From: Bacteroidia bacterium
GTDB lineage: Bacteria; Bacteroidota; Bacteroidia; NS11-12g; UBA9320
Direction: 5' to 3'
DNA length: 64,000 bases
Assembly (NCBI GenBank): GCA_965216465.1
Contig: CBDCFW010000006.1
Location: 192,001 to 256,000 of the forward strand
This document shows, piece after piece, positions 16,852-26,380 of this stretch; the first letter of the stretch is position 1, and each line of letters begins with the position of its first letter. Made by a program: the position numbers and the translations under genes. The notes beneath the pieces are model-generated. The model was given only the letters and a program-made list of their open reading frames with translations. It searched no databases and was not told the origin of the DNA.

Positions 16852-16920
16852 GGTTTAATCATCTCACTGTATTGTAAAAATTAGAAGAGCCTTAGTTATG
16901 TTCTAAGAAAACTTTTAATT

Positions 16921-17361
16921 TTGTCACTTCTGAAAAACAGGTCTGAACATATTAAGTCATTGATAGCTGGTGCCTTTGCATTAGTTGTTTTGTTCAGTAG
17001 TTTTGGAATGAGCTTTGGTTTTCATTTATGTAAGAATGAAATCAAAGACTTTAGTTTCTTAGGAAACGTTGAAGAATGTTCAAGCGACGGAATTTCATGT
17101 CAGGAAGAACCTATTCCTCTAAACTCAATTACTAGGACCCCATGTTGTCAAAATCAAAATATATACAGTCAATCTGTATTTTTTGATGATGCTCCTGTAC
17201 TTCTCGTTTCAAATTCTGACTTTGAAATGAAGCCAGCATTTAGTTTGCTTGAATTGAATCCATCAATTAATGCAGCTTCAAAGTATGATTTCGACCTCAG
17301 ACCTCCTCCCGACATTTATGCTCCTGAGCTAAATATTCTTATTCAATCATTTCTAATTTAG
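16921..17361 (+). CDS. HYC_CC_PP-type Cys-rich leader protein, copy 1
   Basis: Hydrophobic N-terminus, HLC, CC, RPPP; start uncertain because TTG 16921 overlaps TAATTTTG at 16916-16923 (CTG 16930 possible). Confidence 0.75.
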   Translation: MSLLKNRSEHIKSLIAGAFALVVLFSSFGMSFGFHLCKNEIKDFSFLGNVEECSSDGISCQEEPIPLNSITRTPCCQNQNIYSQSVFFDDAPVLLVSNSDFEMKPAFSLLELNPSINAASKYDFDLRPPPDIYAPELNILIQSFLI

Positions 17362-17425
17362 GATTACTAGTGACCTAGTTTAATGACCATGCTATGTTTG
17401 GTCAAGTTATTATATAATCCAAATT
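17355..17425 (+). promoter_or_regulatory. Predicted mRNA hairpin overlapping the leader-1 stop codon and the next gene's initiation region
   Basis: AATTT/AAATT, GGATTA/TAATCC, TAGTGAC/GTTATTA (G-U pairs) and TGACCA/TGGTCA nested arms; no U-tail; ATG at 17429. Confidence 0.6.
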
Positions 17426-17428
17426 GAA

Positions 17429-17650
17429 ATGAAAAAAAACATATTAATCTTAGTAATAATCGCATTTGCAGGAATATCGTATACAGCCTGCAGTTCAAAT
17501 CAAGAAAAAGAAGTTGACCGTACAGGCGTAGAATACACCTCGTCTTACATCTGCCCCATGCACTGTGAGGGTAGCGGAAGTGAGCACCCTGGCAACTGTC
17601 CTGATTGTGGAATGAAATATGTTGAAAATCCCGATAGCACTTCACATTGA
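17429..17650 (+). CDS. Small lipoprotein with heavy-metal-binding domain
   Basis: Lipobox YTAC; YICPMHC...PGNCPDCGM. Confidence 0.88.
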   Translation: MKKNILILVIIAFAGISYTACSSNQEKEVDRTGVEYTSSYICPMHCEGSGSEHPGNCPDCGMKYVENPDSTSH

Positions 17651-18660
17651 AATGTAGGACACACATATCGATTCTAATTACATGCATAATACTGCTCTCT
17701 GCATGCGAACATGATCCTGCTTTGGATATAAACAGCAAGCTTTTTGATACTCCTGACCACTTTGCTCCTATGAAGTTTCCTGAAGATAACGCGTATACTT
17801 CAGACCGTTGGGAGCTAGGGAAAATGCTATTTTTTGACAATCGATTGTCAAAAGACTCAACTTTGAACTGCGGGAGCTGTCATAAACCGGAATTATCATT
17901 CAGCGATGATGTGGCTTTTAGCCCGGGTGTTGAAAACAGGCCTGGTGTTCGTAACTCTCCGAGTCTTGCAAACATTGGATACCACCCATATTTTACCCGC
18001 GAGGGTGGTGTAGCAACACTCGAAATGCAAGTACTAGTACCCGTGCAAGAGCACAACGAATTTGACTTCAACATAGTTGAGATAGAAAAACGACTTTCGT
18101 CTGATTCTGCCTATCAACAAAAAAGTAGAAAAGCGTATAACCGTAATTTAGATTACTATGTAATTACGCGAGCCATATCAAATTTTGAACGTAGCTTAAT
18201 CAGTGCATCAAGTACTTACGACCAATTCTTAACAGACGACCTGACATTAACTGGTGAAGAAATCGCTGGCATGGACTTATTTTTTAGCTCCAAAACCAAC
18301 TGTTCATCATGTCACAGTGGATTTAATTTTACAAACTACAACTTCACGAATAATGGCCTTTATAATGACTATAACGATGAAGGCAGAAAACGTCTTACCG
18401 GATTAGACAAAGATGACGCAGTCTTTAAAGTGCCAAGCTTACGCAACGTTGAGCTAACCGCTCCTTACATGCACGATGGGTCACTACCTTCACTTGAAGC
18501 GGTAATTAATCATTATAATTCTGGAGGGATGAGTCATGCAAACAAACATGAATTGATAAAACCTCTTCACTTAACACAAAAAGAACAAGAACAGCTGATC
18601 GCATTCTTAAAAACATTAACAGATCATAAATTTATTAATAATCCAATATTTAAACCATGA
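17647..18660 (+). CDS. Di-heme cytochrome c peroxidase/MauG-family enzyme, MbnH-like, paralog 1 (lipoprotein)
   Basis: CGSCH, CSSCH, FKVPSLRN, PYMHDG...HY; lipobox LSAC. Confidence 0.9.
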   Translation: MKCRTHISILITCIILLSACEHDPALDINSKLFDTPDHFAPMKFPEDNAYTSDRWELGKMLFFDNRLSKDSTLNCGSCHKPELSFSDDVAFSPGVENRPGVRNSPSLANIGYHPYFTREGGVATLEMQVLVPVQEHNEFDFNIVEIEKRLSSDSAYQQKSRKAYNRNLDYYVITRAISNFERSLISASSTYDQFLTDDLTLTGEEIAGMDLFFSSKTNCSSCHSGFNFTNYNFTNNGLYNDYNDEGRKRLTGLDKDDAVFKVPSLRNVELTAPYMHDGSLPSLEAVINHYNSGGMSHANKHELIKPLHLTQKEQEQLIAFLKTLTDHKFINNPIFKP

Positions 18661-19622
18661 AAAAAATCACAACAAAAATGCTTTTTGCGCTCGCATTAAG
18701 CCTAATTCTGGGAGCTCCTACTCAAGCTCAAACCAATATAAAATTAAAAGTGAATCACTTACTGGGATCCGAAGACTTTGGCTTCCAAAAAATAGCAAAA
18801 AATGATATAGGCAATGAATTCGTAGCCCTACGACTTGAATATTACATTTCTGGCATCACTTTGATTCATGATGGAGGACAAGAAACAACCTTGAACACTT
18901 ATATACTTCAAGATGCAGCCGATGACGACACTGTATCAATAGGTTCAGCAAATATTTCTTCTTTAGAATCTCTTAGCTTTTTCATCGGAGTTGATAAAAC
19001 AAACAATCATGCAGACCCATCAAAGTGGCCATCAAGCCATGCTTTGGCTCCAAAATCTCCATCAATGCACTGGGGTTGGGCTTCGGGCTACCGTTTTGTT
19101 GCTCTTGAAGGTGCTACAGGTGCCAACATGAACAACAAATTTGCAATTCACGCTTTAGGTGATAAAAACTATTTCGAAATGAACATTCCTACCACAGGTG
19201 AAATGATAAATAACAATTTAGTCATTGTATTGAATGCAGATTACACCAAATTGCTTTCTCAAATTAATTTGTCAACTGGCGTATTTAATCATGGAGAAGA
19301 TGATGAAGCGGCTGAATTACTTAGAAACTTCCAAACTAAGGTATTTACAAATATGTCAGGAGAAGGAAACACACTAAGTGTTGAACCTGTCAAAATCACT
19401 AATGCTTTTAGCATCAATCCAAATCCTAGCCATGGAAACTTCAATATTCAAGTTTTAGATTCTCGCTTGCTTAACGCAGAAGTTGAAATCAGAGATCTAA
19501 CTGGCAGAATAGTTTCTGAAAACACCTATTTAAACAATCTTCCTACACTTTCTGCAGGGGTGTATCTTGTAGCTGTTAAGAGTGAAAATATTATTAGCAC
19601 CCAAAAATTAATTGTGAACTAA
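18657..19622 (+). CDS. MbnP-like WxW protein with T9SS type A C-terminal domain
   Basis: LEYYIS, GVD...NH.DP, MHWGWASGYRF; C-terminal NPNPS...DLTGR...GVY...QKLIV. Confidence 0.82.
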   Translation: MKKITTKMLFALALSLILGAPTQAQTNIKLKVNHLLGSEDFGFQKIAKNDIGNEFVALRLEYYISGITLIHDGGQETTLNTYILQDAADDDTVSIGSANISSLESLSFFIGVDKTNNHADPSKWPSSHALAPKSPSMHWGWASGYRFVALEGATGANMNNKFAIHALGDKNYFEMNIPTTGEMINNNLVIVLNADYTKLLSQINLSTGVFNHGEDDEAAELLRNFQTKVFTNMSGEGNTLSVEPVKITNAFSINPNPSHGNFNIQVLDSRLLNAEVEIRDLTGRIVSENTYLNNLPTLSAGVYLVAVKSENIISTQKLIVN

Positions 19623-19623
19623 T

Positions 19624-20709
19624 ATGAAAGTAAGAATATTATCAATTATCCTAGCACTTATTGCTATCGGAATTTGGAGTTGCAAAGACGACGAACCTGC
19701 TGAAGCTATCGTTCACGATACAACCCCATACGAGTTAGATTATGGAAGCTTTCTTCCACCATCCATTGCTGAAGACAACCCACTAACGATACAAGGGGTT
19801 AAACTAGGTCGAATGCTATTTCACGAGAAGATGTTATCGAAAGATGAGTCGCAATCCTGTGCAACATGTCACATTCAAGAATTTGCGTTTAGTGACACTG
19901 CAACGCTGTCTATTGGAGTTCAAGGTCTTCCTGGTAAGCGACAGGCTATGGCTGTCTTTAATATGGCATGGAATATCAATGAATTCTTTTGGGATGGCAG
20001 AGCTCACCTTCTGCGTGACCAATCATTACTCCCCATACAAGACGAACTTGAGATGGATGAAACATTAGATGGGGTAATCGCAAAACTGAATGGTAGCCAG
20101 ATGTATAAAGACCAATTTATGCGTGCTTTTGGAAGTGAGGAAATTACTTCAGAGAAAATGTCACTTGCCATGGAGCAGTTTATGAATTCTATCGTATCAA
20201 CTAATTCAAGGTACGACGAGTTCTTAGAAGATTCTGCGGTCTTTACTGCAAGCGAGAAGAGAGGTCATGATTTATTTTTCCAAGAATACAATGAATTTTT
20301 TCCTGATGAAAGTGGTGCAGATTGTGCTCATTGTCATTCTGGTTTAAATTTTGAGAACGACGAATACATGAATAATGGTCTAGATGCAGGAGCTGATCAA
20401 ACTGATATTGGCAGAGAAAGCGTAACTTCCAATGCTCTCGATAAGGCTAAGTTTAAAGTTACCTCACTTAGAAATATTGAAGTAACAGCACCTTATATGC
20501 ACGATGGTCGATTTAAAACTTTAGAAGAAGTTGTAGAACACTACAATTCTGGTCTTAAAGGTTCTGCATCATTAGATCCAGCACTTGAAGCAACACGGGC
20601 AACTGGACTCATGCTAACTGAGCAAGACAAGGCCGATTTAGTGGCGTTTCTTAAAACTTTGACAGACCAATCATTGTTAAATAATAATAATTACACTGAT
20701 CCGTTTTAA
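19624..20709 (+). CDS. Di-heme MbnH/MauG-like enzyme, paralog 2 (lipoprotein)
   Basis: CATCH, FFWDGRA, CAHCH, PYMHDG...HY; lipobox WSC-KDDE. Confidence 0.9.
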   Translation: MKVRILSIILALIAIGIWSCKDDEPAEAIVHDTTPYELDYGSFLPPSIAEDNPLTIQGVKLGRMLFHEKMLSKDESQSCATCHIQEFAFSDTATLSIGVQGLPGKRQAMAVFNMAWNINEFFWDGRAHLLRDQSLLPIQDELEMDETLDGVIAKLNGSQMYKDQFMRAFGSEEITSEKMSLAMEQFMNSIVSTNSRYDEFLEDSAVFTASEKRGHDLFFQEYNEFFPDESGADCAHCHSGLNFENDEYMNNGLDAGADQTDIGRESVTSNALDKAKFKVTSLRNIEVTAPYMHDGRFKTLEEVVEHYNSGLKGSASLDPALEATRATGLMLTEQDKADLVAFLKTLTDQSLLNNNNYTDPF

Positions 20710-20721
20710 ATTTGCAGTTCA

Positions 20722-21102
20722 ATGAGCAAGGTTTTATCCATATTGTTAAGCTTTTTATTCTTGATCACATCTACTGGTGTTCATCTTGATTTCGCTTATT
20801 GCGGAGATGAGCTGATGCATATTGAATTCTCGCACAGCGATGATATGCAAGAGTCTTGCTGTTTGGCAGATACGCAATATGACTGCTGTGAAACACAAGA
20901 GATTGTTCAAGACCCTCAATTGTTGGACTATATCCCGGTTTCTTCATTTGAGTTTGGATCTGTTCCTTTTGCTATTCTTGATTACCAAGACGTCAGTGTT
21001 AATGTCTTATCAGCTCAAGAGATTTCTCTTGATCATCTACCTAGACCACCTGACTTAGTTCAGGAACACTCCGCTCCTTTCTTGCAACGTTTTATTTGTT
21101 AG
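20722..21102 (+). CDS. HYC_CC_PP-type Cys-rich leader protein, copy 2
   Basis: Hydrophobic N-terminus, AYCG, SCC, DCC, PRPP; own TAAATTTG -7 element at 20707-20714. Confidence 0.8.
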   Translation: MSKVLSILLSFLFLITSTGVHLDFAYCGDELMHIEFSHSDDMQESCCLADTQYDCCETQEIVQDPQLLDYIPVSSFEFGSVPFAILDYQDVSVNVLSAQEISLDHLPRPPDLVQEHSAPFLQRFIC

Positions 21103-21147
21103 TACCTGATTACTGCATTGGCTTTAATCATACATTAACAAATAAAA
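21090..21147 (+). promoter_or_regulatory. Predicted mRNA hairpin overlapping the leader-2 stop codon and the receptor's A-rich initiation region
   Basis: TTTTATTTGTTAGT (21090-21103) pairs with ATTAACAAATAAAA (21134-21147); inner TGATTA/TAATCA stem; TTG start at 21154. Confidence 0.72.
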
Positions 21148-21153
21148 AAACAC

Positions 21154-23406
21154 TTGAAAAAAATATTAATATTCATGGTTGTTACGCTCGTAAGCGTAGT
21201 AACCGTTGCACAAGACCAACATAAATATGTAAACGGTGTTGTGTTATCGATTGATGGAGATCAAAAAACTCCTATTCCAGGTGCGTTCGTACGCTGGATA
21301 GACAAGAAAGCAGGAGTATTTACCAACGACCAAGGTAAATTCTCAATTATGCACATGGGTGAAAGCCCTTCTTTAGTTGTATCGTATGTATCATTTAAAT
21401 CTGATACTATTGCGATTGATGACATTTCAAAACAATACACTGTTATCCTTCAGGATGAAACTGAAATTGGTCCAGCAATTGTGCTTGGAAGAAGAATTAG
21501 TTACGGACTTTCTCGGTTAAGCCCACGAACAACTGTTCTTTTAGGTGAAAGAGAATTTCAAAAGGCAGCATGTTGTAACCTTTCTGAAAGCTTTGAAAAT
21601 GCCCCTGCAATTGATGTAAGCTTTTCGGATGCTGTAACTGGTACTAAGCAGATTAAGATGCTTGGGTTAGATGGTTTTTATACCTTAATCGGAAGAGAAT
21701 ACATGCCCGCAGTTAGAACGTTAAACTCCTATTACGGCTTAAGTCTGATTCCTGCAGCGTGGGTTGAAGGTATTCAAATCACAAAAGGAGCAGGAAGTGT
21801 TGTAAACGGACATGAAAGCATGGCTGGACAAATCAATATTGAAATGAAAAAGCCATTCGGAAACACCAATTTCTTGCTCGACCAATTTGTTTCGCAGGGA
21901 GGAAGAGCCGAAACAGACTTTGTGTACCGAAAAGACCTAAATAAGCATTTAGCTACTTCAATTCTTGCTCGATACTCTTTTCAGCAAATTGAAAACGACA
22001 GAAACAACGATGGTTTCTTAGATATGCCAAAAGGAAATCAGTTTCAAATCATGAACAGATGGCAATTCGCAACTGACAACGGATTTGAAGGTATTGCAAC
22101 TGTTTCATACAATCAAGATGAGAAACTAGCCGGCCAGAAAGAGTTTTACCACGAAAACGACAGTTCATATGGCGTAGAACTCAACACTAAACAATTTGAT
22201 GCAATTGCTAAGATTGGTAAGACCTTTAAAAACAAACCACTTACAAGTCTAGGTAGCCAGTTTTCATTTAATAAAACCTTGTTTGATGGAAATTATGGTA
22301 GTCGATTTAATCCTAACGAGTATCGTGGAGAGTCCTCAACCTTTTACATGAACTTGTTGTATCAGTCGATCATCAAAAACAGCTTTCATCAGTTTCAAAC
22401 AGGTATATCGTTAACTTCAGATCAAATTGAAGAATCTTACCAAGATTTTCGTTTTTCAAGAACAGAAACAGTTCCAGGGGCATTTTTTGAATATACCTAC
22501 AAACCAAAAGAAACGTTTAGCTTGGTTGGAGGAATTCGGACCGATTACAACTTATTATATGGTTGGTCTGTAACACCTCGTATTCATTCAAAATACAGAT
22601 TTAACAAGGAGAAAACTGTGATTCGGGTATCAACAGGAATGGGACGAAGAACTTCAAATCCATTGGCTCAAAGTCAACAGATTTTCACCAGTAGCAGAAA
22701 CATCAATTTCTCTATATCTGATATAAATCTACCCTACGGACTTGAACAAGAAGTTTCGCTAAACTCTGGATTAAGCTTCGAACACGATTTCCATCTGACC
22801 TATATGCCCGCTACCATAGGCCTTGATTACTTCAATACTACATTCTTTAATGAAGTAGTGGTTGACCGTGAAGTGCCAGGCGAGGCCAGCTTCTACAACA
22901 TGAAGAATGGAACGCGTGCAAATAGTTTTCAAACTCAACTCGATTTAAAACCTGCACGAAGAACTGAAGTTCGACTAGCTTATAGAATGTTTGATGTTCA
23001 AACAAAATATAACAACCTGGGTTATCTAGCTAAACCTTTTATTTCAAAGCATCGTTCTTTCATTAATGTAACACAAAGAACGCGTTCTGGGTGGCAGTTT
23101 AGCAGCACAGGAACTTGGTACGGTCCTCAACGAATAGCTGGCAGCTATGAGCAAGCAGGAGACAATAAAATTGTTCAGAACGAATCTCCAAGCTTTGTTC
23201 TGGTAAATGCTCAAGTGAGTAAGACCATTAAAAAACAATTTGAAATCTATACCGGAGTTGAGAATATGTTAGACTACAGACAAGACGATCCTATACAGGA
23301 TGCTGTTGATCCATTTGGATCAAATTTCGATGCAGGGTTAGTCTGGGGACCTGTCTTTGGCCGAATGATTTATGGTGGCTTTAGATGGAGAATTCATGGA
23401 GAATAA
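21154..23406 (+). CDS. TonB-dependent receptor with CC motif in plug (metal uptake)
   Basis: Carboxypeptidase-regulatory-like N-domain, KAACCNLSESF, ITKGAGSV...AGQIN plug, C-terminal GRMIYGGFRW. Confidence 0.92.
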   Translation: MKKILIFMVVTLVSVVTVAQDQHKYVNGVVLSIDGDQKTPIPGAFVRWIDKKAGVFTNDQGKFSIMHMGESPSLVVSYVSFKSDTIAIDDISKQYTVILQDETEIGPAIVLGRRISYGLSRLSPRTTVLLGEREFQKAACCNLSESFENAPAIDVSFSDAVTGTKQIKMLGLDGFYTLIGREYMPAVRTLNSYYGLSLIPAAWVEGIQITKGAGSVVNGHESMAGQINIEMKKPFGNTNFLLDQFVSQGGRAETDFVYRKDLNKHLATSILARYSFQQIENDRNNDGFLDMPKGNQFQIMNRWQFATDNGFEGIATVSYNQDEKLAGQKEFYHENDSSYGVELNTKQFDAIAKIGKTFKNKPLTSLGSQFSFNKTLFDGNYGSRFNPNEYRGESSTFYMNLLYQSIIKNSFHQFQTGISLTSDQIEESYQDFRFSRTETVPGAFFEYTYKPKETFSLVGGIRTDYNLLYGWSVTPRIHSKYRFNKEKTVIRVSTGMGRRTSNPLAQSQQIFTSSRNINFSISDINLPYGLEQEVSLNSGLSFEHDFHLTYMPATIGLDYFNTTFFNEVVVDREVPGEASFYNMKNGTRANSFQTQLDLKPARRTEVRLAYRMFDVQTKYNNLGYLAKPFISKHRSFINVTQRTRSGWQFSSTGTWYGPQRIAGSYEQAGDNKIVQNESPSFVLVNAQVSKTIKKQFEIYTGVENMLDYRQDDPIQDAVDPFGSNFDAGLVWGPVFGRMIYGGFRWRIHGE

Positions 23407-23408
23407 AA

Positions 23409-24119
23409 ATGGAAAAGATTCAATTTAATATATCAGGAATTTCGTGCATGTCTTGTGTAAGCAAGCTTGAAAAAGCCTTTTATGGCAATGCCAACATTAA
23501 GCAAGTTGCGATTGACCAAGAATCTGGAAACACAAACTTACAATTTGAGGGTGAGCTAAATACTGATGAAATAGAATCGATAATAAAAAGTGCTGGCGAC
23601 TACGCATATCATGCAACAGAAGTTGAAGAGAAACGGTCTAGTAAATGGGTAACATACCGGCCGTTAATTTTAATCGTTGGCTACCTATTATTGGTTACGT
23701 TAACATTAGAATTTAGCTCGGGAATGTTCTTAATGGAAACCTGGATGGCAAACTTTATGGCAGGTTTCTTTATTGTTTTTTCGTTCTTTAAATTTTTAGA
23801 TTTAGGTGGATTTGCAAAAGCCTACAGAAGCTATGACATCATAGCTAAAAAAGTAAAATTTTATGGTTATGCATTTCCATTTGTTGAGTTAGCATTGGGT
23901 ATCTCATACCTTTTGTTTTCTGACTTAGCTATAACACATCTCATTACAGCAATTATTATGTTTGTAAGTCTCGTAGGTGTGGTTAATTCAGTGCTCAACA
24001 AATCTGAAATTCAGTGTGCTTGTTTAGGCACGGTCTTCAACTTGCCCATGAGTTATGTAACCATAATCGAAGACACCGTAATGCTTGTTATGGCACTATT
24101 TATGTACTTTAGAATATAG
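23409..24119 (+). CDS. HMA domain fused to MauE/DoxX-like membrane domain
   Basis: GISCMSCV HMA motif; several TM helices; IQCACLG; ATG 23409 preferred start. Confidence 0.87.
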   Translation: MEKIQFNISGISCMSCVSKLEKAFYGNANIKQVAIDQESGNTNLQFEGELNTDEIESIIKSAGDYAYHATEVEEKRSSKWVTYRPLILIVGYLLLVTLTLEFSSGMFLMETWMANFMAGFFIVFSFFKFLDLGGFAKAYRSYDIIAKKVKFYGYAFPFVELALGISYLLFSDLAITHLITAIIMFVSLVGVVNSVLNKSEIQCACLGTVFNLPMSYVTIIEDTVMLVMALFMYFRI

Positions 24120-24123
24120 ACAC

Positions 24124-24876
24124 GTGAAAAAAATATTAATAATAACAACAGTACTTGCATTCTTTGCATCATCGTGCGGGCCAGAAACTGTAGATCCTCC
24201 AGTTGAACCGCAGGAAGTTCAAGAAATGACGCTAAACTTCGCTCCAAAATTTGATGGAGGAAGTTTTGAGCTGCTTTCTAGCACTTACACTTTAGCCAGT
24301 GGCGAAGAGGTAGAATTCAAACGATTTGCGGCATTGTTTAGCAACTTTTATCTGATTAATGAAGATGGGTCGAAACTGATGCTTGACGACCAATACGCTT
24401 TTCTAAACCTTAATAAAAATCAGATGTCAGTAACACTGACTGAGATTCCAAAAGGAAATTATAAAGGTGTTGGATTTATGTACGGATTGGATTCAGCAAT
24501 CAATCATGGTCCGACTAACCAATATCCTATCGACCATCCATTAAACACATTCAACAATTCGTTGTATTGGGATTGGGCAGGCGGATACATATTCTCAGCC
24601 ATCGAAGGAGGAGTAGCAAATTCTAATGAAAAATTTGTGTTTCACTTGGCAGGAAGCATGAATACAATCAATTATGAGCTTCCTATGGTCTTTACTAAAG
24701 ACAATAAAGCACTTCAAGCAGAGATTGATTTGCATATGGATGAAATCTTCAAGAACCCTGAGGTTTATAGCCTTGAGAATGACGGAACGAGTGTGCACAA
24801 TGCCCTTGATGCCGTGACCACAAAGTTAATTGGCAACATGGGTGATATATTTAGTTTAATGAGTGTTTCAGAATGA
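24124..24876 (+). CDS. MbnP-like WxW lipoprotein
   Basis: GTG 24124 start gives MKKILIITTVLAFFASSC lipoprotein signal; GLD..INH, HPL, LYWDWAGGYIF, FHLAG. Confidence 0.82.
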   Translation: MKKILIITTVLAFFASSCGPETVDPPVEPQEVQEMTLNFAPKFDGGSFELLSSTYTLASGEEVEFKRFAALFSNFYLINEDGSKLMLDDQYAFLNLNKNQMSVTLTEIPKGNYKGVGFMYGLDSAINHGPTNQYPIDHPLNTFNNSLYWDWAGGYIFSAIEGGVANSNEKFVFHLAGSMNTINYELPMVFTKDNKALQAEIDLHMDEIFKNPEVYSLENDGTSVHNALDAVTTKLIGNMGDIFSLMSVSE

Positions 24877-25982
24877 AGCTAGGAAAGTATTCCATATTAC
24901 TCTTAATAGTTCTGGGAATCTGGGCTTGTAAGGATGTTGTAAACGAACTTCCAGATACACCGTTCGAAACAACGCCCTATAGCATTGAAATTCCTGGAGG
25001 ACTATTTAAAGCAAGTTTTCCCCCTGATAATAGACCTACTGAGGAAGGTGTTTATCTCGGGAGGATGCTGTTCTACGATCCAATTTTGAGTGCTGATAGC
25101 ACCCAGAGCTGTGCGTCTTGTCACAATCAAGAATTTGCATTTACAGACAATGAGAAGCAGTTTAGCGAAGGAATTAGAGGACTCGAAGGCAAACGAAACT
25201 CAATGCCTATTTTTAATCTAATGTGGCATATGGATGGTTTCTTTTGGGATGGACGGGCTGAGTTGTTAAGACATCAATCTTTGCTTCCAATTCAAGATCC
25301 TTTGGAAATGGATGAAACTTTGGGCAACATGCTGGTTAAGCTTAACGCTTCCGATATGTACAAAGAGCACTTTAAGAAAGCTTTTAACATCGACGAAATT
25401 GATGAAGAACATGTGAGCATGGCCTTAGAGCAATTCATGATGATTATCATTAGCGGTGATTCTAAGTTTGATCGCGTAAACGCTGGTCTCGAAACATTAA
25501 CTGGTCAAGAAGAGGTAGGGAGAATTGTTTTTGGAGAAGAAGCTATTCCTCTAAAACTAGAGCCAGATCCAGATAATCCACAAAACTTTGGGGCTGATTG
25601 CTTCCATTGCCATGGCAACCCGTTGTTCATGCGCCGCGAGTTTGGAAATAATGGACTCGATTCTGTGCTTACAGACAAAGGTTTAGGAGATGTAACCGGC
25701 TTGGCTACCGACGATGGCAAATTCAAGACTCCTAGCTTAAGAAATATCGAAAAAACAGCTCCATATATGCATGATGGACGATTTAATACGTTAGAAGAAG
25801 TAGTGGAGTTTTATTTGAATGGAGCACACGCTAACTCTCCAAACATAGACCCCAACATGCATGCTCTTCAAGATTCCGTATATTTGAGCCCTGAACATAA
25901 AGCGGCTTTAATTGCGTTCTTAAAGACATTAACAGACGACAATTATTTAACAAACCCTGAATATTCAAACCCTTTTAAATAA
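24873..25982 (+). CDS. Di-heme MbnH/MauG-like enzyme, paralog 3 (lipoprotein)
   Basis: CASCH, FFWDGRA, CFHCH, PYMHDG...FY; lipobox WAC; ATGA overlap. Confidence 0.9.
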   Translation: MKLGKYSILLLIVLGIWACKDVVNELPDTPFETTPYSIEIPGGLFKASFPPDNRPTEEGVYLGRMLFYDPILSADSTQSCASCHNQEFAFTDNEKQFSEGIRGLEGKRNSMPIFNLMWHMDGFFWDGRAELLRHQSLLPIQDPLEMDETLGNMLVKLNASDMYKEHFKKAFNIDEIDEEHVSMALEQFMMIIISGDSKFDRVNAGLETLTGQEEVGRIVFGEEAIPLKLEPDPDNPQNFGADCFHCHGNPLFMRREFGNNGLDSVLTDKGLGDVTGLATDDGKFKTPSLRNIEKTAPYMHDGRFNTLEEVVEFYLNGAHANSPNIDPNMHALQDSVYLSPEHKAALIAFLKTLTDDNYLTNPEYSNPFK

Positions 25983-25990
25983 AAGAAATT

Positions 25991-26347
25991 ATGAAAAAAA
26001 TACTTTTAGCACTATTAATGGTAAGTACAGTAGCTGTATTTGCTAAATCCGTGACCAAAAAAATAGAGGTTAAAGGAGAATGCGACATGTGCAAAGAAAA
26101 AATTGAAGCAGCTTTAGACATTCCTGGTGTATCATTTGCCGAATGGGATATTGAATCTAAAATGCTAACTGTTCGCTATAACGACAAAAAAGTAACTGAA
26201 GATCAAATTCATACTGTAATGTCGGAACTTGGTTATGCTACCAGTAAAATGGCGGCAAATAAAGAGGCACAAAACAAGTTAGATGACTGCTGTAAACCAC
26301 AAGAGAAAAAAGGCTGTTGTTCGAGTAAGAGCAGCTGTAAAAAATAA
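25991..26347 (+). CDS. Exported HMA-domain metal chaperone with Cys-rich tail
   Basis: Signal peptide, VKGECDMCKEKIE, tail DDCC...GCCSSKSSC. Confidence 0.9.
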   Translation: MKKILLALLMVSTVAVFAKSVTKKIEVKGECDMCKEKIEAALDIPGVSFAEWDIESKMLTVRYNDKKVTEDQIHTVMSELGYATSKMAANKEAQNKLDDCCKPQEKKGCCSSKSSCKK

Positions 26348-26352
26348 ACTTT

Positions 26353-26380
26353 AAAGACCGGCTAAGCCGGTCTTTTTTTT
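26353..26380 (+). terminator. Intrinsic terminator closing the metal locus
   Basis: AAAGACCGGC-taa-GCCGGTCTTT followed by a T run. Confidence 0.9.

What the first reader, a model, noticed from the sequence alone, without database searches (positions are those of the whole stretch)
16921..21154. Twin Cys-rich leader ORFs with R-P-P motif and stop-codon hairpin: candidate metal-sensing ribosome-stalling switches
Seen: each half of the locus begins with a TAnnTTTG promoter (16916, 20707) followed by a short exported Cys-rich ORF. These end RPPP-DIYAPELNILIQSFLI* (17299-17361) and PRPP-DLVQEHSAPFLQRFIC* (21040-21102): exactly 16 residues after the last Pro in both, despite low identity elsewhere. 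In both, the stop codon lies in the 5' arm of a hairpin (17355-17425; 21090-21147) whose 3' arm is the A-rich initiation region of the next gene. Known: Bordetella CruR and Rhodobacter CutF (DUF2946) are Cu-responsive uORFs with Cys motifs and Pro-rich arrest motifs, and Bacteroidota initiate translation on A-rich leaders rather than SD sequences. Inference: stalling at the Pro motif would leave the hairpin closed, while translation to the stop would melt it. That would give HYC_CC_PP proteins a cis-regulatory function.
Basis: partly seen in the sequence, partly recalled or inferred. Interest (0 to 1): 0.85.

Follow-up and report, generated by a model that had tools for sequence, protein, structure and literature searches.

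The report
Copper-operon leader genes with start-masking hairpins
Two small exported cysteine-rich genes each sit at the head of a copper-handling gene cluster, and their conserved tail plus an RNA hairpin that hides the next gene's start suggest a built-in copper-sensing switch like those recently found in other bacteria.

Summary
Both ORFs (16921/16930-17361 and 20722-21102) are HYC_CC_PP proteins (NF047658). Both hairpins are real (z -4.9 and -5.7).

The features are family-wide.
- In 110 homologous loci the last CC lies 70-80 residues from the C-terminus in all of them.
- The last ~19 residues are the best-conserved part (PP, about 15 residues, then F-L-I-stop).
- In 86 of 96 junctions a helix joins the stop region to the next gene's start region. 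The rate is 37-38% in shuffles and in ordinary junctions of the same genome.
- The pairing is locus-specific: cognate duplex -11.0 versus -6.8 kcal/mol, 0 of 20000 permutations.
- Downstream genes are copper-related: RND pumps, TonB receptors, HMA, HMBD and MbnP proteins.

My reading: these are cis-acting leader ORFs, a non-homologous Bacteroidota analogue of CutF/CruR (hhalign probability 2.7%).

A regulated stall is inferred, not shown. Conservation points to the ORF end rather than the PP codons as the stall site.

The general idea is partly in print (Ozturk 2023 lists CutF-like proteins in Bacteroidota). I rate it a new variant of a known kind.

The parts
16916..16923 (+). TAnnTTTG promoter-like -7 box in front of HYC_CC_PP gene 1
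   Evidence: One search lists the site. In 69 of 109 homologous loci the box lies 5-60 nt before the start, against 4 of 107 control windows. The offset peaks at 12-16 nt.
16921..17361 (+). HYC_CC_PP gene 1. It is 146 aa from TTG 16921; the likelier start is CTG 16930, giving 143 aa. It has an N-terminal hydrophobic helix, H35-x-C37, C53, C60 and C75-C76. The CC lies 72 aa from the end.
17299..17358 (+). Conserved C-terminal module of gene 1: RPPP, then 16 residues ending Q-S-F-L-I.
17347..17432 (+). Helix 1. The 5' arm is the last four codons plus the stop of gene 1. The 3' arm is the A-rich leader plus the ATG of the next gene.
   Evidence: -25 kcal/mol, z -4.88. (24 cross pairs). (cognate duplex -17.3 kcal/mol, ranked 1 of 96).
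17429..17650 (+). HMBD (heavy-metal-binding domain) lipoprotein gene, the first gene controlled by helix 1.
   Evidence: PF19335, E 3e-8. Orthologues are shown.
17647..20709 (+). MbnH-like di-haem enzyme (17647-18660), MbnP with a T9SS tail (18657-19622), and a second MbnH-like enzyme (19624-20709).
20707..20714 (+). TAnnTTTG box 15 nt before the ATG of gene 2, inside the end of the preceding gene.
20722..21102 (+). HYC_CC_PP gene 2 (126 aa). The last CC lies 72 aa from the end. The tail is PRPP plus 16 residues ending R-F-I-C.
   Evidence: Orthologues L102-L107 end in Q-V-F-L-C or similar.
21090..21147 (+). Helix 2. The 5' arm is the last codons plus the stop TAG of gene 2. The 3' arm is the A-rich leader of the TonB-dependent receptor gene.
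   Evidence: -17.6 kcal/mol alone, z -5.74. On my visual reading of the RNA strings printed, equivalent arms are seen in five orthologous junctions. No tool confirmed this: the consensus fold of these six sequences returned no pairs.
21154..23406 (+). TonB-dependent receptor. The TTG start is set by alignment with orthologues that begin M-K-N-I.
23385..26375 (+). Rest of the second unit: HMA-MauE fusion, MbnP, MbnH-like enzyme, HMA protein, then a terminator-like hairpin at 26353-26375.

Best explanation
Each HYC_CC_PP gene is the promoter-proximal leader cistron of a copper-homeostasis operon and controls the next gene in cis.

Shown (from sequence and folding):
- The end of the ORF, roughly -12 to +12 nt around its stop codon, pairs with the A-rich, Shine-Dalgarno-less initiation region of the next gene. 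That region spans about -17 to +3 and often includes the start codon.
- That start is therefore masked unless a ribosome occupies the last codons or the stop of the leader.

Inferred:
- The time the ribosome spends there is set by the nascent chain. The conserved C-terminal ~19 residues (Y-x-P-P, about 15 residues, F-L-I-stop) would act as an arrest or slow-termination peptide in the exit tunnel.
- The fixed ~72-residue distance back to the CC motif would place the small His/Cys beta-sheet domain just outside the Sec translocon at that moment.
- Copper binding, or oxidation of the cysteines, in the periplasm would then change the pull on the chain and so the dwell time.
- The polarity (copper on or off) is unknown. 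It may differ between efflux-type and uptake-type operons.
For: 1. Family membership of both ORFs. The family is large: 9408 representative clusters at E<=1e-3.

2. C-terminal module. In the best 150 representatives, 14-17 residues follow the last PP in 137, the last three residues are FLI or FLL in 115, and positions -17, -16, -11, -7, -5, -3 and -2 are each dominated by one residue (103-137 of 150). All but one of the 150 matches end at or within three residues of the protein's last residue (my count from the table).

3. Ruler. The last CC lies 70-75 residues from the end in 145 of 150 representatives and 70-80 in 110 of 110 loci. The stretch in between has almost no consensus and is predicted as low-confidence coil. 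By contrast HxC to CC varies from 29 to 62 residues.

4. Helix. 86 of 96 junctions have at least 6 bp between stop-18..+22 and start-22..+12 in the minimum-energy fold, and 69 of 96 have at least 10 bp. Shuffles give 38% and 23%. Own-genome junctions give 166 and 105 of 444. Mean MFE z is -2.86. After collapsing at 50% protein identity, 65 of 75 representatives keep the helix.

5. Register. Coverage of the 5' arm peaks from -12 to +12 around the stop. Coverage of the 3' arm peaks from -17 to +3 around the start.

6. Locus-specific complementarity. Cognate duplex -11.03 versus non-cognate -6.78 kcal/mol, 0 of 20000 permutations.

7. Context. The -7 box lies directly upstream in 69 of 109 loci. 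Downstream genes are RND pumps, HMA, HMBD, TonB receptors and MbnP.

8. Precedent. [quoted passage not shown] CruR acts similarly (PMC9426467).
Against: - No experiment: no ribosome profiling, no RNA data for this organism (see Tried and rejected), no copper response.
- The helix alone is equally explained by plain translational coupling.
- Raw stop-by-start duplex energy in the first 26 loci (-8.84) was no better than ordinary junctions of the own genome (-8.16). The signal appears only in the structure-based measure and in the larger set.
- The background control uses crude ORF calls (first ATG of long ORFs).
- 10 of 96 junctions lack the helix. A further 14 of 110 loci were left out because the gap exceeded 200 nt or the downstream start was ambiguous or missing.
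- The start codon itself is fully paired in only 31 of 87 junctions.
- The conserved tail could instead be a protein-level motif, such as a C-terminal ligand or a degradation tag.
- The same sensor design precedes both efflux-type and uptake-type genes, so a single polarity cannot hold everywhere.
- I know of no arrest peptide ending in F-L-I-stop (from my own knowledge, not searched).
Confidence: 0.5

Rival explanations
1. HYC_CC_PP is an ordinary exported or membrane-tethered copper-binding protein, such as a metallochaperone or accessory factor. The helix only couples translation of the next gene to it, or stabilises the mRNA. There is no regulated stalling.
For: Invariant Cys and His residues form a small predicted beta-sheet next to an N-terminal helix. 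Every neighbour handles copper. Helices spanning a junction also occur in 37% of ordinary junctions of this genome. The conserved tail could be a binding or degradation motif.
Against: The linker of about 55 residues is conserved in length but not in sequence, and is predicted as coil. The tail must end exactly at the stop. The downstream partner class varies (pump, receptor, HMA, HMBD, MbnP), which argues against one fixed protein partner. The gene is almost always first and promoter-proximal. The helix is anchored on its stop codon in 90% of junctions, against a 37% background.
Confidence: 0.3
2. A metal-dependent stall at the Pro-Pro codons, 48-51 nt before the stop, keeps ribosomes away from the hairpin, so it stays closed (off). 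Read-through to the stop opens it (on).
For: The geometry is consistent. A ribosome at the last Pro codon would reach only to about 38 nt before the stop, and the 5' arm starts at about -12 (ribosome footprint from general knowledge). The window's RPPPD and RPPD are strong poly-Pro contexts (general knowledge of EF-P-dependent motifs). In CutF the stall is at PPP (bioRxiv 2025.02.05.636593).
Against: 15 of 110 homologues have only a single Pro. The 15-16 residues after PP, and their exact number, are as conserved as PP. A stall at PP gives no reason for that, because those residues would not yet have been made.
Confidence: 0.15
3. The ORFs are precursors or substrates of the neighbouring MbnH/MbnP-type enzymes, i.e. 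a modified copper-binding peptide.
For: Three MbnP/MbnH pairs lie in the same locus.
Against: About a quarter of the junctions examined (25 of 87 by motif rules; two checked by Pfam) are followed directly by an RND pump gene, and many others by HMA or HMBD genes rather than MbnP. Only about 1.4 kb downstream was examined. This model gives no reason for the stop-anchored helix.
Confidence: 0.03

Closest known systems
CutF of Rhodobacter capsulatus (cutFOG; DUF2946)
   Same: A small Sec-exported Cys-motif protein encoded first in a copper operon, with a Pro motif near the C-terminus. A stem-loop between it and the next gene shields that gene's initiation region and is opened by the ribosome on the leader (PMC9973294; bioRxiv 2025.02.05.636593).
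   Different: No detectable homology. The motifs are HxC and CC rather than CxxxC. PP lies about 15-16 residues before the stop, not at the very end, and a further conserved peptide runs up to the stop. The helix masks an A-rich, SD-less leader and often the start codon itself, rather than an SD. Downstream genes are pumps, receptors, HMA, HMBD or MbnP, not a multicopper oxidase.
CruR (Bp2923) of Bordetella pertussis (DUF2946)
   Same: An upstream ORF heading an operon with a TonB-dependent transporter. MbnPH-like genes are listed among its synteny partners. The spacing between the Cys motif and the Pro motif is conserved (45 residues) (PMC9426467, sections 9 and 10).
   Different: In CruR the RAPP motif lies 3 residues before the end, the mechanism is Rho-dependent termination, and the spacer is long (162 nt). 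Here the ruler is about 72 residues to the stop, the spacers are mostly 50-130 nt, and a start-masking helix is present. True RAPP-type DUF2946 ORFs do exist in a few other Bacteroidota families and look quite different.
Classical secretion-monitor arrest peptides (SecM, MifM, VemP) and TnaC
   Same: A conserved C-terminal peptide of about 17-20 residues on an exported leader, and a downstream initiation region held in a helix that a ribosome at the arrest point would open (general knowledge; cited in the discussion of PMC9973294).
   Different: There is no sequence resemblance and no demonstration of arrest. The proposed signal here is periplasmic metal, not secretion activity or tryptophan.
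'CutF-like proteins' list D of Ozturk et al. 2023
   Same: Small proteins with a signal peptide and a PP motif upstream of metal genes. 19% of the 5334 entries are from Bacteroidota. The neighbours reported include ACR_tran and TonB-like genes (PMC9973294, sections 10 and 11).
   Different: Their filter asks for PP within 15 residues of the C-terminus. Most HYC_CC_PP tails place PP at -17 and -16. I could not see whether the family is in the list, because the supplements are closed. No Bacteroidota member was analysed further in the text I read.

Membership tests
HYC_CC_PP (NCBIfam NF047658; Pfam 38.1 DUF8199 according to the Atlas) | Score above the curated cut-off of the family model | tested here: met
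   42.5 and 41.1 bits against a cut-off of 28. For ORF2, the nearest Atlas clusters are 100% DUF8199.
HYC_CC_PP (NCBIfam NF047658; Pfam 38.1 DUF8199 according to the Atlas) | The three name-giving motifs: H-x-C after the N-terminal hydrophobic segment, CC in the middle, PP near the C-terminus | tested here: met
   ORF1 has H35-L-C37, C75-C76 and PPP. ORF2 has A-Y-C (no His), CC and PP.
DUF2946 (PF11162; CruR/CutF) | Match to the Pfam model, or profile-level homology | tested here: not met
   0 of 29 family members hit PF11162 at E<=1. The best hit in the own genome has E 0.7 and lies elsewhere. hhalign of the 150-sequence profile against six Bacteroidota DUF2946 ORFs gives probability 2.7%.
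DUF2946 (PF11162; CruR/CutF) | CXXC or CxxxC copper motif, and a Pro motif (RAPP/PPP) within a few residues of the C-terminus | tested here: not met
   The motifs here are HxC and CC. In the window, 16 residues follow the Pro motif. Genuine members found end in R-A-P-P plus 2-3 residues (one in R-G-P-P plus 4).
DUF2946 (PF11162; CruR/CutF) | Copper-dependent, cis-acting control of the downstream gene | not testable with these tools
   This needs reporter, toeprint or Ribo-seq experiments.
CutF-like proteins as defined by rules (Ozturk 2023, list D) | [quoted passage not shown] | tested here: met
   146 (or 143) aa and 126 aa; gaps of 67 and 51 nt.
CutF-like proteins as defined by rules (Ozturk 2023, list D) | PP within 15 residues of the C-terminus; Sec signal peptide predicted by SignalP | tested here: inconclusive
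   PP ends 16 residues from the end in both ORFs, just outside the rule. 91 of the 150 best representatives have 15 residues after PP. No signal-peptide predictor was available; there is only a predicted N-terminal helix at residues 3-27.
Arrest-peptide leader with a start-masking helix (functional class) | The downstream initiation region is paired with sequence that a ribosome at the end of the leader would occupy | tested here: met
Arrest-peptide leader with a start-masking helix (functional class) | Demonstrated elongation or termination arrest | not testable with these tools
   No ribosome profiling or RNA data were available.

The most novel reading that the evidence does not exclude
The conserved C-terminal ~19-mer of HYC_CC_PP/DUF8199 is a new, DUF2946-unrelated arrest peptide that acts at or next to the stop codon. 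A ~72-residue ruler spans the ribosome tunnel plus the Sec channel. As a result, copper binding by a tiny periplasmic His/Cys domain tunes how long the ribosome holds open a helix that masks the SD-less start of the next gene. This would be a transmembrane, nascent-chain copper switch governing thousands of efflux and uptake operons across Bacteroidota.
Probability: 0.35. Interest if true: 0.8.

Novelty: new variant of a known kind. Interest (0 to 1): 0.62.

Why it matters
- It would assign a function to a very large uncharacterised family: 9408 clusters at 50% identity, present in 74 of 301 sampled Bacteroidota genomes.
- It would extend nascent-chain, across-the-membrane metal sensing from Pseudomonadota to a phylum that does not use Shine-Dalgarno sequences. 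In that phylum, masking the start region by RNA structure is the natural control point.
- It would supply a new candidate arrest peptide with a built-in molecular ruler for ribosome and Sec-translocon studies.
- It makes clear, cheap predictions: tail recoding, stop displacement and helix compensation in a tractable Flavobacterium.

Tried and rejected
- Consensus folding failed. RNAalifold on MAFFT alignments of the orthologous junctions returned no consensus pairs. The arms sit in different registers and the interiors are unalignable. I replaced this with per-sequence folds and a cognate versus non-cognate duplex test.
- Raw duplex energy in the first 26 loci did not beat ordinary junctions of the own genome. 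I therefore did not use it alone.
- Chance hairpins are rejected.
- DUF2946 membership is rejected.
- Solved structures: no PDB relative of the family profile at E<=1.
- Structure prediction gave only a moderate model (pLDDT 69). I ran no fold search on it.
- Complex prediction of the mature part of ORF1 with the downstream HMBD lipoprotein returned 'no answer'. This is not evidence either way.
- No RNA holder was listed for the region.
- Literature: 'HYC_CC_PP' gave 0 papers. 'DUF8199' gave 0. 'arrest peptide' with 'Flavobacterium' and 'copper' gave 0. 'CutF' with 'Bacteroidota' gave only the Ozturk paper as relevant, judging by titles among the 10 of 64 hits listed.
- For PMC6847099 I saw only the search listing and the start of the abstract.
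- Supplements (list D, File S1 of PMC9973294; Table S1 of PMC9426467) are closed. They may already contain HYC_CC_PP members.
- Rows dropped:
  - L017 (ORF runs off the contig) and L027 (frame not recovered) were dropped from all counts.
  - L011 has no downstream DNA.
  - L007, L031, L045, L063, L065, L086 and L097 have an ambiguous downstream start.
  - L026, L042, L092, L093, L103 and L108 have gaps over 200 nt.
- Four downstream starts were set by hand after inspection: L002, L021, L022 and L024.
- Downstream classes come from simple motif rules. Only ten were checked by Pfam. One of them, labelled HMA, had no hit.


Full report
**What is there.**
The region carries two transcription-unit-like halves on the + strand.

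- Half 1: a small ORF (16921 or 16930 to 17361), then an HMBD lipoprotein gene (17429-17650), an MbnH-like di-haem enzyme, an MbnP with a T9SS tail, and a second MbnH-like enzyme.
- Half 2: a second small ORF (20722-21102), then a TonB-dependent receptor (21154-23406), an HMA-MauE fusion, MbnP, an MbnH-like enzyme and an HMA protein. It ends at a terminator-like hairpin at 26353-26375.

Both small ORFs pass the NCBIfam model HYC_CC_PP: 42.5 and 41.1 bits against a cut-off of 28. Neither hits the local Pfam copy. The Atlas places ORF2 among clusters labelled DUF8199 in Pfam 38.1. These are the only two copies in the genome.

**Check of the observation.**
- The tails are as described, with 16 residues after RPPP and after PRPP.
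- Hairpin 1 folds at -25.0 kcal/mol (z -4.88, 0 of 200 shuffles as good). It spans 17347-17432 and contains both the stop codon and the ATG of the next gene.
- Hairpin 2 folds at -20.7 kcal/mol (z -5.68). Its stem, 21090-21147, contains the stop and ends 7 nt before the TTG start of the receptor gene. That start is fixed by alignment with orthologues.
- The TAnnTTTG boxes are present but the motif is not enriched in the window: 69 seen, 76 expected.
- The boxes gain meaning from comparison. 69 of 109 homologous loci have the box 5-60 nt before the start, against 4 of 107 control windows. The offset peaks at 12-16 nt, seen in 43 of 109.
- The same short offset is common in this genome: 184 of 2778 crude ORFs. 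The architecture is therefore normal for the organism. What matters is that HYC_CC_PP genes usually carry their own promoter.
- The first box overlaps TTG 16921. CTG 16930 aligns with the GTG/TTG starts of orthologues and is the likelier start.

**The protein family.**
- I found it in 34 of 61 close relatives and in 74 of 301 evenly sampled Bacteroidota genomes.
- It is nearly universal in some families (15 of 16; 21 of 22). It was not found in two large ones (0 of 63; 0 of 49).
- A profile search of 1.84 billion representatives gave 9408 hits at E<=1e-3 and 3001 at E<=1e-10.
- In the best 150:
  - The last CC lies 70-75 residues from the end in 145.
  - 14-17 residues follow the last PP in 137, and exactly 15 in 91.
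  - The last three residues are FLI in 89 and FLL in 26.
  - The tail reads roughly Y-[KP]-P-P-[LI]-x-x-[RQK]-D-[IL]-x-[VI]-L-x-Q-[ST]-F-L-[IL]-stop.
- In 110 complete ORFs from the fetched loci:
  - CC to end is 70-80 in all 110 and 70-75 in 94.
  - PP to stop is 12-17 in 77.
  - 15 have no PP, nearly all keeping a single Pro.
- The distance from HxC to CC varies from 29 to 62 residues.
- Between CC and the tail there is almost no consensus.
- AlphaFold2 with 150 sequences gave mean pLDDT 69. It predicts:
  - an N-terminal helix (residues 3-27);
  - a three-stranded sheet built from the HxC hairpin and the strand after CC;
  - low-confidence coil from 84 to 136;
  - a short C-terminal helix.

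The best-conserved parts are therefore a small metal-ligand domain and the extreme C-terminus. They are joined by a spacer conserved in length only.

**The RNA.**
I took each junction from 24 nt before the end of the leader to 12 nt into the next gene. I counted base pairs in the minimum-energy fold between stop-18..+22 and start-22..+12.

| Set | n | at least 6 bp | at least 10 bp |
|---|---|---|---|
| HYC_CC_PP junctions (gap 40-200 nt) | 96 | 86 (90%) | 69 (72%) |
| Dinucleotide shuffles | 2880 | 38% | 23% |
| Same-strand junctions of the own genome (crude ORF calls) | 444 | 166 (37%) | 105 (24%) |

- Mean MFE z is -2.86, with z<=-2 in 74 of 96.
- Collapsing the leaders at 50% protein identity leaves 65 of 75 representatives with the helix.
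- The 5' arm is centred on the stop codon, with coverage highest from -12 to +12.
- The 3' arm sits on -17 to +3 of the downstream start.
- At least one stop base is in the helix in 54 of 86 junctions. At least one start base is in it in 56 of 86.
- The complementarity is locus-specific:
  - Cognate arm pairs average -11.03 kcal/mol, against -6.78 for non-cognate pairs.
  - 0 of 20000 permutations reach the observed mean.
  - The cognate partner ranks in the top 5 of 96 in 46 cases.
- In several relatives the triplet CAU that pairs with the next AUG lies 2-7 nt after the leader's stop.
- Five orthologues of the window's second unit appear to keep arms built from the last codons and the receptor's leader. 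Their base differences look compensatory. This is my visual reading of the sequences printed, not a formal count, and no tool confirmed it.

**Results that weaken the case.**
- The first 26-locus duplex test was no stronger than ordinary own-genome junctions: -8.84 against -8.16.
- Consensus folding of MAFFT alignments failed.
- The start codon is fully paired in only 31 of 87 junctions.
- 14 of 110 loci were outside the analysis. They are listed under Tried and rejected.

**Context.**
Motif rules applied to 87 junctions gave these downstream classes: RND pumps of the CusA type (25), HMA proteins (25), HMBD proteins (15), TonB-dependent receptors (11) and others (11). Pfam checks on ten of them confirmed ACR_tran (2), Plug, HMA, MbnP (2) and HMBD. 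They also found DUF3347 and a beta-propeller. One protein labelled HMA had no hit. The leader thus precedes both efflux-type and uptake-type copper genes.

**How it most likely works.**
Shown: the leader's last codons and stop are paired with the next gene's initiation region. From general knowledge, a ribosome covers roughly 12-15 nt on either side of its P site. A ribosome decoding the end of the leader must therefore open that helix. In Bacteroidia, initiation does not use Shine-Dalgarno pairing and is tuned by mRNA structure (PMC6847099; I saw the listing and the start of the abstract only).

Inferred: three features fit a nascent peptide that acts while the ribosome is at the ORF end.
- The tail always ends at the stop.
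- The number of residues from PP to the stop is nearly fixed.
- The number of residues from CC to the stop is fixed at about 72, although the sequence between them is free.

With about 30-40 residues in the tunnel and about 20 or more across the Sec channel (my estimate from general knowledge), the CC strand would just have emerged into the periplasm at that point. Folding, oxidation or copper loading of the small domain could then alter the pull on the chain and so the dwell time. This is the logic shown for CutF (PMC9973294; bioRxiv 2025.02.05.636593) and is related to CruR, which has a conserved 45-residue spacing (PMC9426467, section 9).

It is geometrically possible. It does not explain why the 15-16 residues after PP are conserved, or why 15 of 110 members lack PP.

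**Comparison with what is known.**
- The family works like CutF/CruR but is not DUF2946.
  - 0 of 29 members hit PF11162 at E<=1.
  - The own genome has no copy.
  - Only 4 of 301 sampled Bacteroidota genomes have a hit over the cut-off, all in other families.
  - Those ORFs end in R-A-P-P plus 2-3 residues, or R-G-P-P plus 4 in one.
  - hhalign between the two profiles gives probability 2.7%.
- No solved structure matches the family profile.
- No paper in the searched library names HYC_CC_PP or DUF8199.
- Ozturk et al. 2023 report a rule-based list of 5334 'CutF-like' proteins, 19% from Bacteroidota. ACR_tran and TonB-like genes are among the neighbours (sections 10, 11 and 25). Their rule, PP within 15 residues of the end, would just miss most HYC_CC_PP tails. 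The closed supplements prevent a check.

**Verdict.**
- The cis-regulatory reading is well supported at the level of RNA anatomy and conservation.
- The metal-sensing stall is a reasoned inference with strong precedent but no direct evidence here.
- I rate it a new variant of a known kind.

- No RNA data were available.
- The one complex prediction gave no answer.

Noticed in passing
whole genome G000: Among 2778 crude ORFs, 184 have a TAnnTTTG box whose first base is 12-16 nt before the first ATG. This is the commonest offset. It suggests that leaderless or near-leaderless mRNAs are frequent in this organism.
   Followed up: partly
window 17647-25982: Three MbnP/MbnH-like pairs lie in one locus. 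One MbnP (18657-19622) carries a T9SS C-terminal sorting domain, so it is probably surface-exposed or secreted.
   Followed up: no
window 23385-24119: An HMA domain is fused to a MauE-like membrane domain. Its start overlaps the end of the TonB-dependent receptor gene by 22 nt.
   Followed up: no
L114, L116-L120 (other Bacteroidota families): These loci hold genuine DUF2946/CruR-like ORFs of 108-130 aa. They have His-rich and CxxC-like centres and end in R-A-P-P plus 2-3 residues (one in R-G-P-P plus 4). Both leader types therefore exist in the phylum, but they were not found in the same taxonomic families of the sample.
   Followed up: partly
L005, L009, L013 junctions: Inside the stop-to-start helix there are one or two G+C-rich inner hairpins, the second followed by a run of U. 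These could be a transcription attenuator layered on the translational control.
   Followed up: no
G020:C4:35355-35516: An HYC_CC_PP match with an in-frame TAA inside it; possibly a broken second copy.
   Followed up: no
L102-L107 and window 21088-21102: The leaders in front of TonB-dependent receptors in this genus all end in Cys (F-L-C, F-K-C or F-I-C) instead of the usual Ile. The receptor-linked leaders of another family (L032-L038, L041, L042, L045) end in I-F-Y, V-F-Y or I-L-Y followed by A or S. The tail may therefore differ by operon type.
   Followed up: no
L021/L102 (G004) and L024/L103 (G016): The twin arrangement is kept in at least two relatives: an HMBD-type unit followed about 3.8-3.9 kb later by a receptor-type unit.
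   Followed up: partly
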